Shown here in pieces: positions 54,727 to 64,000 of a stretch of DNA of 64,000 nt. Positions within the stretch are counted from its first letter, which is position 1. The number at the start of each line of letters is the position of its first letter. The stretch is from a virus (Duplodnaviria; Caudoviricetes): IMG/VR virus record IMGVR_UViG_3300044627_003892; one strand, written 5' to 3'. The notes under the pieces were generated by a model. The model worked only from the letters and a program-made list of their open reading frames with translations. It ran no database searches and was not told the DNA's origin. The position numbers were made by a program, and so were the translations under genes.

Positions 54727-55941
54727 ATGAATGCAAAAATTAAAGTTTTAGTTATCCCTTCTGACACAACAGGTGTTGGTAGATTTAGGTCAATAACACC
54801 TCACACACATCTACAATCGTTATATAATGATGATTTTCATATTGATATTGAATTTAATCCTGATTTAAATAACTTAAATTATTTTAAAGATTATCAAATT
54901 ATTCATTATCACCGTTCTCTTGGTCAAGATATGGATAGGTCGGTACAGGTTGTACCAATTCTTAATTCTTTAGGAATTATAACAATATGTGATTTAGACG
55001 ATTATTGGTTACCAGGCAATGAACACCCACTTCACCAGTTAATTATCCAAGAAAAAATACACGAAAAAATTGTTGCAAATTTAAAAGTTGCAAAATATGT
55101 AACTACAACTACTGAGTTATTTGCGGATGAAATAAGAAAACATAATAAAAATGTTGTAATTTTCCCAAATGCAATTGACCATAAAGAAGCTCAATTTAAT
55201 GAGCCCACTGAAGAATCTGACTTGGTGAGAGTTGGTTGGTTAGGTGGTTCATCACACTTACATGATTTGATGTTACTTGATGGCATGGTATCTAAACTTT
55301 CTGATATTCAGAAAAATTTACAATTTGTTGTTTGTGGTTTTGATACTCGTGGTATGATGACTGAAATTAACCAACAAACAGGGGAGAAAAAACAAAGACC
55401 AATTAAACCACACGAGACTGTATGGTACGATTACGAAAAAATATTTACAAACAATTATTCAATTGTTACTCCCGAATATAAAAAACATTTAGAATTATTT
55501 GTTCAAACACCTTATGAAAATGAACAAAACCAATCATATAGAAGAGTTTGGACAAAACCTGTCACATCTTACGCTCGTAATTATTCTAAATTTGACATAT
55601 CTTTGGCACCGATTAAACAACACATGTTTAACAAAGTAAAATCACAACTTAAAGTTATTGAGGCAGGTTTTTATAAGAAAGCGTTAATTGCAACTAACTA
55701 CGGACCGTATACAATTGATTTAAAACATTCATTAAAGAATGGTGAATTTACAGATGGAAACGCTCTTTTAGTCGATGACGTAAGAAATCATAGTGATTGG
55801 GCAAAATACATTAAAAAATTAGTCCAAAACCCAAACATGAGAATTGATATGGGAGAAAGACTATATGAACATGTTTCTAAACACTATAGTTTAGATGTAG
55901 TTACAAAAACAAGAGCAGAATTTTATAAATCAATCGTATGA
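54727..55941 (+). CDS. Glycosyltransferase, GT-B fold (GT4-like)
   Basis: CDLDDYW, FPNAID, VGWLGGSSH, DISLAP, KSQLKVIEAG, ALIAT. I prefer the ATG at 54727 to the TTG at 54691. Confidence 0.8.
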   Translation: MNAKIKVLVIPSDTTGVGRFRSITPHTHLQSLYNDDFHIDIEFNPDLNNLNYFKDYQIIHYHRSLGQDMDRSVQVVPILNSLGIITICDLDDYWLPGNEHPLHQLIIQEKIHEKIVANLKVAKYVTTTTELFADEIRKHNKNVVIFPNAIDHKEAQFNEPTEESDLVRVGWLGGSSHLHDLMLLDGMVSKLSDIQKNLQFVVCGFDTRGMMTEINQQTGEKKQRPIKPHETVWYDYEKIFTNNYSIVTPEYKKHLELFVQTPYENEQNQSYRRVWTKPVTSYARNYSKFDISLAPIKQHMFNKVKSQLKVIEAGFYKKALIATNYGPYTIDLKHSLKNGEFTDGNALLVDDVRNHSDWAKYIKKLVQNPNMRIDMGERLYEHVSKHYSLDVVTKTRAEFYKSIV

Positions 55942-56636
55942 TAAAGCACCCATTACACAAAATCTTATTTATTGACATTGAAACTGTTGGGGTTTCAAGT
56001 AATTATGAAAATTTCAAAAAGGATTATCCTGAACTTCATTTCCAATTTATTAATTATTTGGATTGGTTTAAAAAAAGGTTTCCTGAAGATAGTGAATTAA
56101 GTTTGGACGAAATATTTGTTAACAGAGCCGCTCTTGTTCCCGAATTTTCAAAGATTGTTTGTGTTTCAGTAGGATTTGTTGACCCAAAGGGTGATATTAA
56201 AAAACAAAGTTTCTTTAACTCAGACGAAAAAGTATTACTTAAAGACGCTAACACATTATTAAATCGTGTAGACAAGTTAGGATTTATTCTTTGCGGACAT
56301 AATCTTAAGAACTTTGATATTCCTGTATTAGCAAAAAGAATGTTAATAAATGGTATCTTACCATCATCAATACTTCCATCTTATGATACTAAACCGTGGG
56401 AAATTAAGGCAATAGATACAAAAGAAATTTGGCAGTACGGACAATTTGGTGCTATTAGTTCATTAGAATTAATGTGTGTATCACTTGGTATTGAAAGTCC
56501 TAAAAACATGGAAGTGACTGGTAATAAAGTTCATAACGCATTTTGGAATGAAAACAAATACCAAGAAATTCAAGACTATTGTGAAAAAGATGTTGAAGTA
56601 TTAATAAAAGTTTTAATAAAGTTAACAAACTTATGA
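55938..56636 (+). CDS. DEDDy 3'-5' exonuclease (PolB-exonuclease-like, stand-alone)
   Basis: FIDIET, GHNLKNFD, YCEKDV. Confidence 0.85.
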   Translation: MIKHPLHKILFIDIETVGVSSNYENFKKDYPELHFQFINYLDWFKKRFPEDSELSLDEIFVNRAALVPEFSKIVCVSVGFVDPKGDIKKQSFFNSDEKVLLKDANTLLNRVDKLGFILCGHNLKNFDIPVLAKRMLINGILPSSILPSYDTKPWEIKAIDTKEIWQYGQFGAISSLELMCVSLGIESPKNMEVTGNKVHNAFWNENKYQEIQDYCEKDVEVLIKVLIKLTNL

Positions 56637-57217
56637 GTAAAGAATTAGATTTTAAAGAAGAATTAGAGACATTACAAAATTTTTTAAAACAAATGTCCAA
56701 TCCTGACACAGATGAAAATGAATTATTAATTTCGGATGAAGAGTTATCAAATTTGAGTGAAGAAATGGAAAATATGATTTATAAAGTTGACCTTAACTAC
56801 TCTTCAAAAGAAGGAAGAATATTAAGTTACAATTATGAATCCGATAGTGGGTTTGACTTATATTCTATTGAACAAATCACTATACCTGCCTTTGGTAGAG
56901 CTTTAGTTCCAACAGGTATTGTTTTAGATATCCCTGAAGGATTTGAGGTACAGATAAGGTCTAAAAGTGGTTTAGCTCTTAATCAGGGATTAATGGTGTT
57001 AAATAGTCCTGGAACAATTGACCAAGGGTACATTGGTGAAATTAAAGTAATAATCTTTAACACTAATAACCATTCAGTAATAATTGAACGAGGTATGAAA
57101 GTTGCTCAAGCTGTTTTAGCAAATGTCGTTAGTGGAAAATTTGTAACATTAAATAAAATTGAAAATGTGGACCAAAAAGAAAGAGGTTCTAATGGTTTTG
57201 GAAGTACAGGAATATGA
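56633..57217 (+). CDS. dut: Trimeric dUTPase with acidic N-terminal extension
   Basis: DSGFDL, RSKSGLA, PGTIDQGYIGEI, AQAV, RGSNGFGSTG. Confidence 0.93.
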   Translation: MSKELDFKEELETLQNFLKQMSNPDTDENELLISDEELSNLSEEMENMIYKVDLNYSSKEGRILSYNYESDSGFDLYSIEQITIPAFGRALVPTGIVLDIPEGFEVQIRSKSGLALNQGLMVLNSPGTIDQGYIGEIKVIIFNTNNHSVIIERGMKVAQAVLANVVSGKFVTLNKIENVDQKERGSNGFGSTGI

Positions 57218-62548: not shown

Positions 62549-63258
62549 AATTTGCAATTATTATAAGTACGTACAAAAGGGATGATGGTAATACACCTTT
62601 TTTACTTAAAAGATGTTTAAATTCCATATCAAATCAATTACATGATGATTATAAAATTTTTTTAATAGGAGACCGTTATGAAAATAACGAAGAATTTATA
62701 GAAATTTGTAATACTTTTGAAAACAAAGATAAAATATATTTTGAAAATTTAAATATTGCGTCAGAAAGAGACGTTTTTAATAATAAACTTAACATTTGGA
62801 AATTTGGGGGAGTAAACGCTGTAAATCACGCCATAGATATTTCTAAAAATGAAGGATTTAATTATATTGTTAGGATTGACCATGATGATTTTTGGGAAAA
62901 TAATCATTTAAAATCAATTAATGATTGTATTGAACTAACTAATTCAGCGTTTGTTTGTACAAAAAGTAAATATTATGGTGAAGTTTTACCAAGTACCCCA
63001 AGCCATGAAAAATATATAGAATTTAAACCGTCTCCAGGAAATTTAGTTCACTCATCGATATGTTTTGATTTAAATCAACTACCATTAAAATATAGAACTT
63101 TAGGAGATATAAAATGTGGTGTATACGCCGCAGATGGATGTTTATATTTAGAAATTGCAGAATTAGTTGAAAAAAATAATTTAAAGTCTATATTGATAAA
63201 TGAAATTACTTGTAATGTAGAAAGTGATTCATTTTTTATAAGAAATGGTCGTAATTAA
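62545..63258 (+). CDS. Glycosyltransferase family 2-like
   Basis: IIISTYKR, LNSISNQ, LIGDRY, RIDHDDFW, AADG. Confidence 0.8.
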   Translation: MKFAIIISTYKRDDGNTPFLLKRCLNSISNQLHDDYKIFLIGDRYENNEEFIEICNTFENKDKIYFENLNIASERDVFNNKLNIWKFGGVNAVNHAIDISKNEGFNYIVRIDHDDFWENNHLKSINDCIELTNSAFVCTKSKYYGEVLPSTPSHEKYIEFKPSPGNLVHSSICFDLNQLPLKYRTLGDIKCGVYAADGCLYLEIAELVEKNNLKSILINEITCNVESDSFFIRNGRN

Positions 63259-63272
63259 TATTAATTAAAAAA

Positions 63273-64000
63273 ATGTATACTGTAGAAAAAATATCAAATT
63301 GGGATATTAGAGTTGATATCCAAACAAATAAACCGTGTCAGCTATACGTAGACACGTTTCCGTCATCACCTAAACAATGTTTAAGAGTTCTTTGGTCTGT
63401 TGAACCAAATGAAATTGCAGGATTAAGAGATATTGTAATTAATAGACATAAAGAGTTTGATTTAATATTAACTTGGCACAAAGAAGTATTGGATAATTGT
63501 TCAAACGCCAGATTATTCCCACACGGGATGTCTTGGATTTTAGATTTTGATTTAACAAAAGAAAAAGAATATTGTGTAACCTCTATTGTTGGTGGTAAAA
63601 AGTTAACCCTAAATCATATTGTTAGACAAGAATTACCAACAGTAATAAACCAAGTTACTTCAGTACCATTACATTTATTTAATAGTAAAAATAATCCATA
63701 TAACGGAAAACCTACAATTGATAGATTTATACAAAATAGTGATATAAAAAATGAATTATTTTATTCTCAATATCATATATCTATTGAAAACGTATGTCAA
63801 CCAAATTATTTCAGTGAAAAACTTATTGATTGTTTTCAAACCAATACTATCCCAATTTATTTAGGATGTCCAAACATTGAAAATTTCTTTGATGTTAGAG
63901 GTATGTTTATAGTTAAAACTTTGGATGACATTGTTAATGTTTGTAATTTAATTACACCTGAAACATACAATGAAATGTTACCTTACGTTAAAGAAAATTA
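63273..64000 (+). CDS. Partial GT10 (alpha-1,3-fucosyltransferase-like) glycosyltransferase
   Basis: Not in the ORF track. My translation from ATG 63273 is open to the edge and contains YHISIENVCQPNYFSEKLIDCFQTNTIPIYLGCPN, the GT10 motif. Confidence 0.8.
   Translation, partial: MYTVEKISNWDIRVDIQTNKPCQLYVDTFPSSPKQCLRVLWSVEPNEIAGLRDIVINRHKEFDLILTWHKEVLDNCSNARLFPHGMSWILDFDLTKEKEYCVTSIVGGKKLTLNHIVRQELPTVINQVTSVPLHLFNSKNNPYNGKPTIDRFIQNSDIKNELFYSQYHISIENVCQPNYFSEKLIDCFQTNTIPIYLGCPNIENFFDVRGMFIVKTLDDIVNVCNLITPETYNEMLPYVKEN

What the first reader, a model, noticed from the sequence alone, without database searches (positions are those of the whole stretch)
54727..64000. Phage-encoded amino-sugar biosynthesis and multi-glycosyltransferase locus
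Seen: one plus-strand operon of more than 9 kb with GT4-like, GT2+GT4 fusion, three GT2 and a GT10-like gene, plus an SDR, a DegT aminotransferase and a GNAT. It continues past the window edge. Established: SDR dehydratase, then DegT aminotransferase, then N-acyltransferase is the standard route to N-acyl 4-amino-6-deoxy sugars (O-antigens, Mimivirus viosamine fibril glycan). Inference: the phage builds its own oligosaccharide of several residues. Seven GT domains is more than single-sugar DNA glucosylation needs, which favours virion (or host-surface) glycosylation.
Basis: partly seen in the sequence, partly recalled or inferred. Interest (0 to 1): 0.72.

Follow-up and report, generated by a model that had tools for sequence, protein, structure and literature searches.

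The report
Swappable sugar-coat gene island in lake jumbo phage
A roughly 306-kb uncultivated lake phage carries four conserved sugar-transferase genes flanking a gene island for making and attaching rare sugars. Related phages swap the contents of this island much as bacteria swap O-antigen genes, so the phage probably builds its own strain-specific glycan, but the target of that glycan is not shown.

Summary
From 54727 to 64000 there is one gap-free plus-strand gene run with seven glycosyltransferase (GT) domains, a short SDR, a DegT aminotransferase and a GNAT.

The run has two parts:
- **Conserved core, 54727-58851.** It holds a GT4-type GT, an exonuclease, a dUTPase and a GT2-GT4 fusion. 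It is syntenic in all 80 IMG/VR relatives examined.
- **Variable island, from 58852.** This is the left half of a 10.7-kb island that ends at phoH. In 81 loci the island holds 236 protein clusters in 60 gene orders. All are soluble sugar-nucleotide enzymes, GTs or sugar methyltransferases.

The window's GT2-DegT-GNAT-GT2 module is 81% identical in DNA to phages whose core is only 67% identical. The nearest core relatives (86-89%) lack the module.

The SDR is a CapF-type 4-ketoreductase, not a dehydratase. The only 4,6-dehydratase is a GMD 5.5 kb past the window edge. The DegT-to-N-acetyltransferase step is supported, because relatives carry a VioB/PglD/PerB-type enzyme in the GNAT's slot.

Complete relatives lack lipid-carrier machinery and every known route to glycosylatable DNA bases. 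Glycosylation of a phage (virion) protein in the cytoplasm is the best reading but is unproven. Earlier notes of this scan reached a similar reading on this genome.

The parts
54727..55941 (+). Conserved core GT, GT-B fold, GT4-like, 404 aa
   Evidence: PHROG 7162 E 6e-45. AF2 pLDDT 84 with Foldseek top hits MshA, GlgM, PglA and BshA. 59-95% identical in all 80 relatives. Start codon fixed by the relatives.
55938..56636 (+). PolB-exo2-like 3'-5' exonuclease, conserved, lying between the core GTs
   Evidence: Pfam PF10108 E 7e-14. Syntenic in relatives.
56633..57217 (+). dUTPase with a 60-aa N-terminal extension, conserved
   Evidence: Pfam PF00692 E 1e-25. Syntenic in relatives.
57214..58851 (+). 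Conserved two-domain GT (GT-A Glyco_tranf_2_5 plus GT-B GT4). It is the left anchor of the variable island.
   Evidence: Pfam. 207 IMG/VR relatives at 58-92% identity. 284 representative clusters at E<=1e-30, with the two domains also found apart. DNA identity to the closest relatives stops at its stop codon.
58852..64000 (+). Left 5.1 kb of a hypervariable glycan island. The full island runs about 58852-69532 in window numbering and ends at phoH.
   Evidence: Island G+C is 26.5% against 30.9% for the window.
58848..59531 (+). Short SDR, 227 aa. A CapF-N-domain/RmlD-like NDP-4-keto-sugar reductase candidate, found only in this phage among the 81 loci.
   Evidence: PDB Cap5F E 4.5e-5. Family of about 225 aa with invariant GxGxxA and YxxxK motifs. 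Singleton cluster 235.
59533..60249 (+). GT2. It belongs to the commonest island family (cluster 0, 54 of 81 loci).
   Evidence: Pfam E 3e-15.
60251..60973 (+). GT2, first gene of the mobile GT2-DegT-acetyltransferase-GT2 module
   Evidence: Pfam E 1e-18. 82-86% identical in L071, L072, L075 and L078.
60970..62127 (+). DegT-family sugar 4-aminotransferase with the PLP lysine present. Nucleotide-sugar specificity is unresolved.
   Evidence: Pfam 249 bits. NCBIfam PseC and ArnB both fall below cut-off. Best PDB hit is ArnB at 1e-40. 91-94% identical in phages with distant cores.
62129..62548 (+). GNA1-type GNAT, the probable N-acetyltransferase of the DegT product
   Evidence: PDB GlcN6P N-acetyltransferases at 1e-17 to 1e-14, other GNATs at 1e-5 or weaker. 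The slot is taken by a VioB/PglD/PerB-like enzyme in relatives. The DegT-GNAT pair recurs elsewhere.
62545..63258 (+). GT2, last gene of the module
   Evidence: Pfam E 1e-9. 68-69% identical in L072, L075 and L078.
63273..64000 (+). GT10-like fucosyltransferase-type GT, cut by the window edge (full length 267 aa)
   Evidence: Pfam E 2e-4. PDB hits are only alpha-1,3-fucosyltransferases.
54656..54675 (+). Terminator-like hairpin with a T run, between the upstream operon and the GT run
49186..52023 (-). 945-aa LamG-like protein with a 98-aa Pro/Thr-rich stalk. It is a weak candidate acceptor, transcribed divergently from the operon at 52071 that precedes the GT run.
   Evidence: It is the only PTS-rich protein in the window. 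Atlas leads point to Laminin_G_3. 46 of 67 homologues carry stalks of 26-552 aa. Stalk length shows no correlation with island size.

Best explanation
The stretch is the left two thirds of a two-tier glycan locus in a lake jumbo myophage.

**Tier 1, the conserved scaffold (shown).** It consists of a GT4-type GT and a GT-A/GT-B fusion GT on the left. A GT1-like and a GT2-like GT lie just right of phoH. All examined relatives keep these genes in the same order.

**Tier 2, the variable island (shown).** It sits between the fusion GT's stop codon and phoH, and measures 4-19 kb in relatives and 10.7 kb here. It is a recombination hot spot. Its cassettes encode only soluble nucleotide-sugar enzymes, GTs and sugar O-methyltransferases, and they are exchanged among divergent phages.

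In this phage the island encodes:
- a 4-ketoreductase-like SDR and a GT2;
- a mobile GT2-DegT-GNAT-GT2 module, which makes and transfers an N-acetylated 4-amino-deoxy sugar;
- GT10-like and GT11 fucosyltransferase-type GTs;
- a Gmd / ColD / GDP-fucose-synthase-like set, which would make GDP-colitose and/or GDP-fucose;
- a GT47-like GT.

**Inferred mechanism.** The enzymes act in the cytoplasm without a lipid carrier. The conserved GTs lay a conserved inner glycan on a phage-encoded acceptor, most likely a virion surface protein. The island enzymes then add a strain-specific outer part. This would give phage 'serotypes', as in chlorovirus and mimivirus virion glycosylation and mycobacteriophage capsid and tail glycosylation.
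For: - **Synteny and variability.** The core is conserved in all 80 loci while the genes after 58851 are patchy. The island bounds were fixed in five long records. 40 loci have both anchors, with islands of 4.0-18.7 kb. 889 island proteins fall into 236 clusters, with 60 gene orders in 81 loci.
- **Lateral exchange.** The window is 86-89% DNA-identical to L013 and L010 up to 58851-58862, and the identity then drops sharply (only 71% over 59519-60278 in L013, none in L010). The window is 67% identical to L072, L075 and L078 in the core but 81% over 59554-63241. The island is lower in G+C than the left core in 27 of 32 islands.
- **Content is purely glycan-related.** Counts of cluster representatives are FkbM methyltransferases 14, SDRs 11, GT2 10, GMD 9, GT11 5, DegT 4, hexapeptide acyltransferases 4, UGDH 3 and GT25 3. 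The top clusters are GT2, GT11, GT10, UGDH and SDR.
- **Soluble enzymes.** Only 2 of 889 island proteins have even one hydrophobic 19-mer.
- **No lipid-carrier machinery.** No Bac_transf, WecA/MraY-type or Wzx family was found in four long relatives, two of them 100% complete.
- **No DNA route.** The only PF00303 family member is a canonical ThyA, in 3 of the 4 records including both complete ones. Tet_JBP and C5-methyltransferase are absent.
- **Conserved acceptor implied.** Four GT genes are conserved across a lineage whose core proteins are only 58-65% identical.
- **Module function.**
- **Rest of the island in the same phage.**
- **Precedents.** Giant-virus clade-specific glycosylation clusters (PMC10117803, PMC9614988). 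Mycobacteriophage virion glycosylation (Freeman 2023, as cited in PMC12619734).
Against: - No acceptor is identified.
- Soluble GT2, GT4, GT10 and GT11 enzymes are also what bacteria use on undecaprenyl-PP-linked O-units. The host could supply the initiating transferase, flippase and ligase, so the missing membrane genes do not exclude host-surface remodelling.
- The one obvious candidate acceptor nearby is the Pro/Thr-rich stalk of the 945-aa LamG-like protein. It is missing in 21 of 67 homologues and does not co-vary with island size (rho -0.09).
- The hypervariable proteins downstream (p640, p520) do not co-vary with island type either.
- Expression timing is unknown. The TATTTAT motif seen before structural genes precedes the operon at 52071 but not the GT run.
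- The absence tests were run on relatives, not on this phage's whole genome.
- The source of the DegT's 4-keto substrate is unresolved.
Confidence: 0.5

Rival explanations
1. Host-envelope remodelling. The phage GTs and sugar pathways act on the host's undecaprenyl-PP-linked O-antigen, capsule or core intermediates at the inner face of the membrane. The host's own flippase and ligase export the altered glycan. This changes the infected cell's surface to block superinfection or to stop progeny sticking to debris. Island diversity would then track host O-antigen diversity.
For: - The island's enzyme families are the ones found in O-antigen loci. The GT2 genes best match PglI, TuaG, EpsE and WcaA models, all below cut-off, and the island also holds GT10/GT11, Gmd/ColD and DegT.
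- This is the published reading of the GT-rich hypervariable 'host recognition cluster' of pelagimyophages and cyanomyophages (PMC7029224).
- The lower G+C of the island fits acquired genes.
Against: - Four GT genes are strictly conserved across a deeply diverged phage lineage, which argues for an acceptor that does not change with the host.
- Among 236 island clusters and four long genomes there is no initiating phosphoglycosyltransferase, flippase, polymerase, ligase or Gtr-type membrane protein.
- Cassettes circulate among the phages at 80-94% protein identity rather than looking freshly taken from cells.
Confidence: 0.27
2. DNA hypermodification. The GTs build mono- to oligosaccharides on a modified base of the phage DNA to defeat restriction, as in T-even phages, RB69/DLP3 arabinosyl-5hoC and the MT/TET/GT clusters of Pyle et al. 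Island diversity would reflect an arms race with nucleases.
For: - Phage GTs related to LPS and teichoic-acid enzymes do put di- and trisaccharides on DNA (bioRxiv 10.1101/2023.12.21.572611; PMC13326640).
- A dUTPase and an exonuclease sit between the two left core GTs.
- Structural neighbours of the GT4-like protein include proteins labelled DNA alpha-GT at ranks 18-20.
Against: - Complete relatives have one thymidylate-synthase-family gene only, and it is a canonical ThyA (241 bits to S. aureus ThyA, all top PDB hits ThyA).
- They have no Tet_JBP and no C5 cytosine methyltransferase, so no known source of hmC, hmU or 5hoC. The Tet_JBP search rang in no control genome, so its sensitivity is unproven.
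- Ten or more GT domains, sugar O-methyltransferases and amino-, deoxy- and dideoxy-sugar pathways far exceed any known DNA glycan.
- T4 AGT and BGT are not among the top 50 PDB structural matches.
Confidence: 0.08
3. Auxiliary sugar metabolism with no dedicated phage acceptor. The genes would boost or redirect host nucleotide-sugar pools, or make a secreted or soluble glycoconjugate, during a long infection.
For: The islands also carry UGDH and NAD synthase, which look like general metabolic helpers.
Against: About half of the genes are transferases rather than precursor enzymes. Tight operon coupling and conserved GT anchors imply an ordered assembly line.
Confidence: 0.05

Closest known systems
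Giant-virus autonomous glycosylation: Megavirinae clade-specific fibril glycosylation clusters, chlorovirus capsid glycans (PMC10117803, PMC9614988, PMC8456856)
   Same: - Virus-encoded nucleotide-sugar pathways for rare bacterial-type sugars, including N-acetylated 4-amino-4,6-dideoxyhexoses and GMD-derived deoxyhexoses.
- Many soluble GTs, some multi-domain, plus sugar methyltransferases.
- No lipid-carrier machinery.
- Cluster content differs between clades.
- A GNA1-type acetyltransferase is a eukaryote and giant-virus style enzyme.
   Different: - This is a tailed bacteriophage.
- Variation sits in one fixed island between conserved anchors and turns over among close relatives: 60 gene orders in 81 loci, rather than a few clade-level clusters.
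- The acceptor and the glycan have not been observed.
Mycobacteriophage virion O-glycosylation (Freeman et al. 2023, cited in PMC12619734)
   Same: Phage-encoded cytoplasmic GTs would decorate phage structural proteins.
   Different: - Those phages carry one or two GTs beside the capsid and tail genes and use host sugar nucleotides.
- Here there are about 12 GT domains plus several sugar pathways.
- The locus is not next to the capsid gene.
- Glycosylation is not shown.
Hypervariable 'host recognition cluster' of pelagimyophages and cyanomyophages (PMC7029224)
   Same: A large non-syntenic island in aquatic T4-like myophages that is rich in GTs and LPS-type sugar genes, between conserved modules.
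   Different: - That island mixes in tail fibres and other AMGs, and was read as host O-chain modification.
- This one is purely glycan genes, has exact anchors (fusion GT stop codon and phoH) and is flanked by four conserved GTs.
Bacterial O-antigen and capsule loci (for example E. coli O55 colitose, perosamine-containing O-antigens)
   Same: - Cassette-like diversity between conserved flanks and lower G+C.
- The same enzyme families (Gmd, ColD, DegT, N-acetyltransferase, GT2/GT4/GT10/GT11).
   Different: There is no initiating transferase, Wzx, Wzy, Wzz or ABC exporter, and the locus lies in a phage genome.
'Moraphages' (PMC12619734)
   Same: Freshwater jumbo phages of up to 307 kb with four core GT orthogroups. 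Some encode DnaK, and G004 here has one. This phage's contigs are 306.2-306.8 kb.
   Different: Identity of the lineage was not tested by sequence here. The paper does not describe a variable glycan island (the word 'hypervariable' occurs 0 times).

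Membership tests
DegT/DnrJ/EryC1 sugar aminotransferase (60970-62127) | Pfam PF01041 above the gathering score over the full length | tested here: met
   249.4 bits against a cut-off of 19.8, profile positions 4-359 of 360.
DegT/DnrJ/EryC1 sugar aminotransferase (60970-62127) | PLP-binding lysine (aminotransferase) rather than histidine (ColD-type dehydratase) | tested here: met
   The SFQAVK motif is read directly in the translation. The best PDB hits are aminotransferases (ArnB at 1e-40), not ColD.
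PseC, ArnB or WecE equivalogs (specific substrate) | NCBIfam equivalog score above the curated cut-off | tested here: not met
   PseC 198 against 423.5, ArnB 191 against 631, PRK11706 141 against 375. The substrate stays open.
   It is 227 aa. Its only weak Pfam hits are Epimerase and RmlD_sub_bind. The best PDB hit is the reductase domain of Cap5F. Homologues are all about 225 aa and are named 4-reductases by JGI.
SDR superfamily (58848-59531) | N-terminal glycine-rich dinucleotide motif and catalytic YxxxK | tested here: met
   G4, G6, A9, Y74 and K78 are invariant in 12 family members.
GNA1 glucosamine-6-phosphate N-acetyltransferase (62129-62548) | Closer in sequence to GNA1 enzymes than to other GNATs | tested here: met
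   Nine GNA1 structures at E 3.5e-17 to 4e-14. The next GNATs are at 1.5e-5 or weaker.
GNA1 glucosamine-6-phosphate N-acetyltransferase (62129-62548) | Acts on GlcN-6-P within a UDP-GlcNAc pathway (GFAT and UAP partners) | tested here: inconclusive
   The context argues otherwise. The gene always directly follows a DegT, and relatives have a VioB/PglD/PerB-like enzyme in its place. No GFAT or UAP was seen in the island. Enzyme activity cannot be tested here.
GT4 / GT-B glycosyltransferase (54727-55941) | Two Rossmann-like domains (GT-B fold) most similar to GT4 enzymes | tested here: met
   AF2 pLDDT 84.1 and pTM 0.82. Foldseek top hits are MshA, GlgM, PglA, HepE, BshA and PimA at E down to 5e-13.
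GT4 / GT-B glycosyltransferase (54727-55941) | Pfam Glycos_transf_1 above the gathering score | tested here: not met
   19.3 bits against a cut-off of 26.4. This is a divergent member.
GT10 fucosyltransferase (63273 onward) | Pfam PF00852 above cut-off | tested here: not met
   21.5 bits against 23.9 on the truncated copy. The full-length copy hits only GT10 structures, at E 2.6e-5 to 9e-3 over the nucleotide-binding motif. It is 'GT10-like' only.
Wzx/Wzy- or ABC-dependent O-antigen or capsule locus | Initiating polyprenyl-phosphate transferase, flippase, polymerase or exporter | tested here: not met
   No PF02397, PF00953 or PF01943 in G001, G003, G004 or G005. 887 of 889 island proteins lack any hydrophobic 19-mer. 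This was tested in relatives and in the islands, not in this phage's whole genome.
Phage DNA glycosylation systems | An enzyme that makes a hydroxylated or hydroxymethylated pyrimidine (non-ThyA TS homologue, or C5-MTase plus TET/JBP) | tested here: not met
   One canonical ThyA only. No PF12851 and no PF00145. This was tested in relatives, and the PF12851 search had no positive control.
Virus-encoded virion glycosylation (giant-virus or mycobacteriophage type) | Glycans demonstrated on virion proteins | not testable with these tools
   This needs virions or a viral-fraction glycoproteome.

The most novel reading that the evidence does not exclude
This lake jumbo-phage lineage has true virion 'serotypes'. 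Four conserved GTs lay a common inner glycan on a virion protein. A single recombination hot spot between the fusion GT and phoH supplies interchangeable outer-glycan cassettes for amino, deoxy, dideoxy and O-methyl sugars. That would be a phage counterpart of the bacterial O-antigen locus and the first case of population-level glycan diversification in a bacteriophage particle.
Probability: 0.35. Interest if true: 0.8.

Novelty: new variant of a known kind. Interest (0 to 1): 0.62.

Why it matters
If the glycan is on the virion, tailed phages would join giant viruses in building their own complex, strain-variable sugar coats. The size of the variable gene pool (236 protein clusters in 81 loci) implies strong diversifying selection on the particle surface in lakes. 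That would open questions about what reads phage glycans, such as host receptors, defence lectins, grazers or particle adhesion.

If the target is instead the host surface, this is an unusually large and mobile superinfection-exclusion toolkit in a lytic jumbo phage.

In either case, the fixed anchors make the island easy to track in metagenomic time series. It is also a rich source of soluble enzymes for rare sugars such as colitose and N-acetyl-4-amino-deoxyhexoses, and of methyltransferases.

Tried and rejected
- **No cultured relative.** Megablast of the locus and tblastn of the fusion GT against 50,697 phage records found nothing. The tail sheath is at most 32% identical to any cultured phage.
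- **Own genome not searchable.** No whole genome is held for the window, and the 306-kb record could not be searched. The absence tests therefore rest on relatives.
- **Pro/Thr-stalk acceptor idea.** Stalk length does not correlate with island size (rho -0.09, p 0.69), and 21 of 67 homologues lack a stalk. This gives no support.
- **Co-variation with downstream proteins.** The hypervariable downstream proteins p640 and p520 do not co-vary with island type.
- **Promoter scans.** Sigma-70-like sites are at the chance level, 84 against 82 expected. TATTTAT precedes many structural genes and the operon at 52071, but also some replication genes, and it does not precede the GT run. Expression timing is therefore unresolved.
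- **RNA evidence.** No RNA holder was listed among the sequencing runs.
- **Fold search of the GT4-like model.** Searches against PDB and viral structures returned generic GT-B enzymes, with no clue to the acceptor.
- **Protein atlas leads.** The 945-aa protein points to Laminin_G_3, and p520 to gp5-like proteins at 0.88-0.89. These are leads only.
- **Is GMD the source of the DegT substrate?** All 3 complete islands with this DegT have a GMD. They also have ColD and a reductase that need GMD anyway, so the co-occurrence is not informative.
- **No complex prediction.** None was run, because no specific binding claim is made.

Full report
**What is there.** The window is part of an uncultivated myophage. 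It has a tail sheath, baseplate wedge, DnaB, UvsX, RNR and a PolB, and G+C is about 31%. Exact copies of its proteins lie on contigs of 306.2-306.8 kb. The locus is held almost word for word in at least 20 lake-water metagenome runs from 2020-2024. No cultured phage is close.

From ATG 54727 to the window end there is an unbroken plus-strand run of eleven genes with overlaps or gaps of at most 14 nt. A terminator-like hairpin at 54656-54675 precedes it.

**Two tiers.** The fusion GT has 207 relatives in IMG/VR at 58-92% identity, on contigs of up to 321 kb. One record is 321,283 bp with direct terminal repeats.

In all 80 loci fetched, the genes from the 945-aa protein (49186-52023, minus strand) through the fusion GT are syntenic. 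The genes after 58851 are present only patchily. By extending five long records I found the other boundary, which is a conserved phoH. After it come a small conserved block and two more conserved GTs, one GT1-like and one GT2-like.

Forty loci have both anchors, and the stretch between them is 4.0-18.7 kb. Its 889 ORFs fall into 236 clusters (40% identity, 60% coverage), with 60 different gene orders among 81 loci.

A contig 100% identical to the window over 59092-64000 gives the rest of this phage's island. In order it carries the full GT10-like gene, GT11, a GDP-fucose-synthase-like SDR, a ColD-type 3-dehydratase, an unknown 258-aa protein, a GT47-like GT and Gmd. Then come phoH, two small genes, a GT1-like GT and a GT2-like GT. 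The island therefore spans about 58852-69532 in window numbering. The finding covers the left core and the left half of the island.

**Exchange.** At the DNA level the window matches its nearest core relatives (L013, L010) at 86-89% from 47.2 kb to 58851-58862, and the identity then drops sharply (L013 keeps only a 71% stretch over 59519-60278; L010 has no further match). Against L072, L075 and L078 it is 67% identical in the core but 81% over 59554-63241 and 79% over 63259-64000. At the protein level the DegT is 91-94% identical in phages whose fusion GT is 58-59% identical.

The island is lower in G+C than the left core in 27 of 32 distinct islands (Wilcoxon p 6e-7), and measures 26.5% here. 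Zero-difference contigs from four runs cross the 58851/58852 junction. Contigs of co-occurring relatives pile up on the core (depth 59-101) more than on the island (8-44). The short SDR is unique to this phage among the 81 loci, but belongs to a widespread family.

**What the island encodes.** I scanned one representative from each of 149 clusters. The counts were:
- FkbM methyltransferases, 14;
- Epimerase-type SDRs, 11;
- GT2, 10;
- GMD-type, 9;
- GT11, 5;
- DegT, 4;
- hexapeptide acyltransferases, 4;
- UGDH, 3;
- GT25, 3;
- UDP-GlcNAc 2-epimerase, 2;
- rhamnosyl O-methyltransferases, 2.

The commonest clusters are GT2 (54 loci), GT11 (53), GT10 (39), UGDH (36), DUF6165 (35), an SDR (25) and GMD (20). 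Only 2 of 889 proteins have any hydrophobic 19-mer, and one of the two is the N-terminus of a UGDH-cluster protein. Four long relatives, two of them complete, have no Bac_transf, no WecA/MraY-type transferase and no Wzx.

**The amino-sugar step.** The DegT has the PLP lysine and scores nearly equally with PseC and ArnB, both far below their cut-offs, so its substrate is open. The GNAT is clearly of the GNA1 type.

However, in relatives with the orthologous DegT (L069, L071, L088) the next gene is a left-handed beta-helix protein. Its best PDB matches are VioB, PglD and PerB. DegT-GNAT pairs also occur in unrelated contigs.

The SDR is not the dehydratase. It is 227 aa, has the SDR motifs, resembles the Cap5F reductase domain, and its family is named as 4-reductases. 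The only 4,6-dehydratase in this island is Gmd. That makes a perosamine-type route (Gmd, then DegT, then N-acetylation) the only self-contained one, but this is inference.

**Which acceptor.**
- *DNA.* The complete relatives have a single thymidylate-synthase homologue, and it is a canonical ThyA. They have no TET/JBP and no C5-methyltransferase. None of the known handles for DNA glycosylation is therefore available (PMC13326640; bioRxiv 10.1101/2023.12.21.572611).
- *Host surface.* This is not excluded, because O-antigen GTs are also soluble and the host could supply the membrane steps. It is also the published reading of a comparable island in pelagimyophages (PMC7029224).
- *Phage acceptor.* Four GT genes stay fixed while the phage core diverges to about 60% identity. 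Cassettes circulate within the phage gene pool. The content (deoxyhexoses, fucosyltransferase-type GTs, many O-methyltransferases, multi-domain GTs, a GNA1-type enzyme) matches giant-virus virion glycosylation (PMC10117803, PMC9614988).

The nearby 945-aa LamG-like protein has the window's only Pro/Thr-rich stalk. Stalks are absent in 21 of 67 homologues and do not co-vary with the island. Two hypervariable proteins downstream do not co-vary with it either. My estimates are about 0.5 for a virion protein, 0.27 for the host envelope, 0.08 for DNA and 0.05 for other targets.

**Novelty.** Virus-encoded glycan machinery, phage virion glycosylation and GT-rich variable islands in aquatic myophages are all known. 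The likely lineage ('moraphages', PMC12619734) has been noted to have four core GTs.

The new points are the anatomy and the scale:
- a pure glycan island with exact anchors, flanked by conserved GTs;
- very high cassette turnover;
- documented transfer of a four-gene amino-sugar module between divergent phages.

Earlier notes of this scan on the same genome reached the virion-glycosylation idea and identified the colitose cassette. I confirmed the latter by PDB matches.

Noticed in passing
window 52024-52070 and upstream of many genes (for example 8986-9045, 31754-31793, 36253-36317, 39498-39579): The motif TATTTAT on the coding strand lies 11-41 nt before the start of baseplate, sheath and other structural genes, the 945-aa LamG-like gene and the operon at 52071. 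It also lies before DnaB and two plus-strand genes at 43321 and 44850. It may be a phage promoter element. It is absent before the GT run.
   Followed up: partly
window 49186-52023 (-) and homologues in L001-L080: The LamG-like protein has a conserved N-terminal body of about 620-710 aa. After it comes a highly variable tail with Pro/Thr/Ser-rich stalks of 26-552 aa plus extra domains in 46 of 67 loci, and nothing in 21 loci.
   Followed up: partly
L095:12997-16677 (about 3.5 kb right of phoH in this phage): This is a second hypervariable spot. Two proteins of 640 and 520 aa are only 27-41% identical even to the closest relative, whose flanking genes are 81-88% identical. Atlas leads place the 520-aa protein near gp5 and baseplate-hub families (0.88-0.89, lead only).
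   Followed up: partly
L074:11626-12408 and 16 other loci (island cluster 9): An NAD synthase gene (Pfam E 5e-53) sits at the start of the island, mostly directly upstream of the UDP-glucose dehydrogenase gene. It may supply cofactor for sugar oxidation.
   Followed up: no
L090-L093 (unrelated metagenome contigs, up to 72 kb): A DegT-GNAT pair (GNAT 67% identical to the window's) lies beside several notable genes: a 760-aa GT with GT4, GT9 and TibC-like hits, a PfkB kinase with a cytidylyltransferase-like gene (HldE-like), a methyltransferase, a hexapeptide transferase and very large proteins with faint SprB hits. This may be a protein-heptosylation-type system in another phage or a Bacteroidota genome.
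   Followed up: no
G004:C1:228880-230661: One complete relative (294 kb) encodes a full-length DnaK (852 bits). The other three long relatives do not. This fits the 'moraphage' description.
   Followed up: no
L086:674-1768 (G003): The phage ThyA is 364 aa and has an insertion of about 40 aa (residues about 212-251) relative to bacterial ThyA structures.
   Followed up: no
island cluster 4, for example L025:16850-17233: A 127-aa DUF6165 protein is the usual last gene before phoH (35 loci), but it is absent from this phage's island.
   Followed up: no
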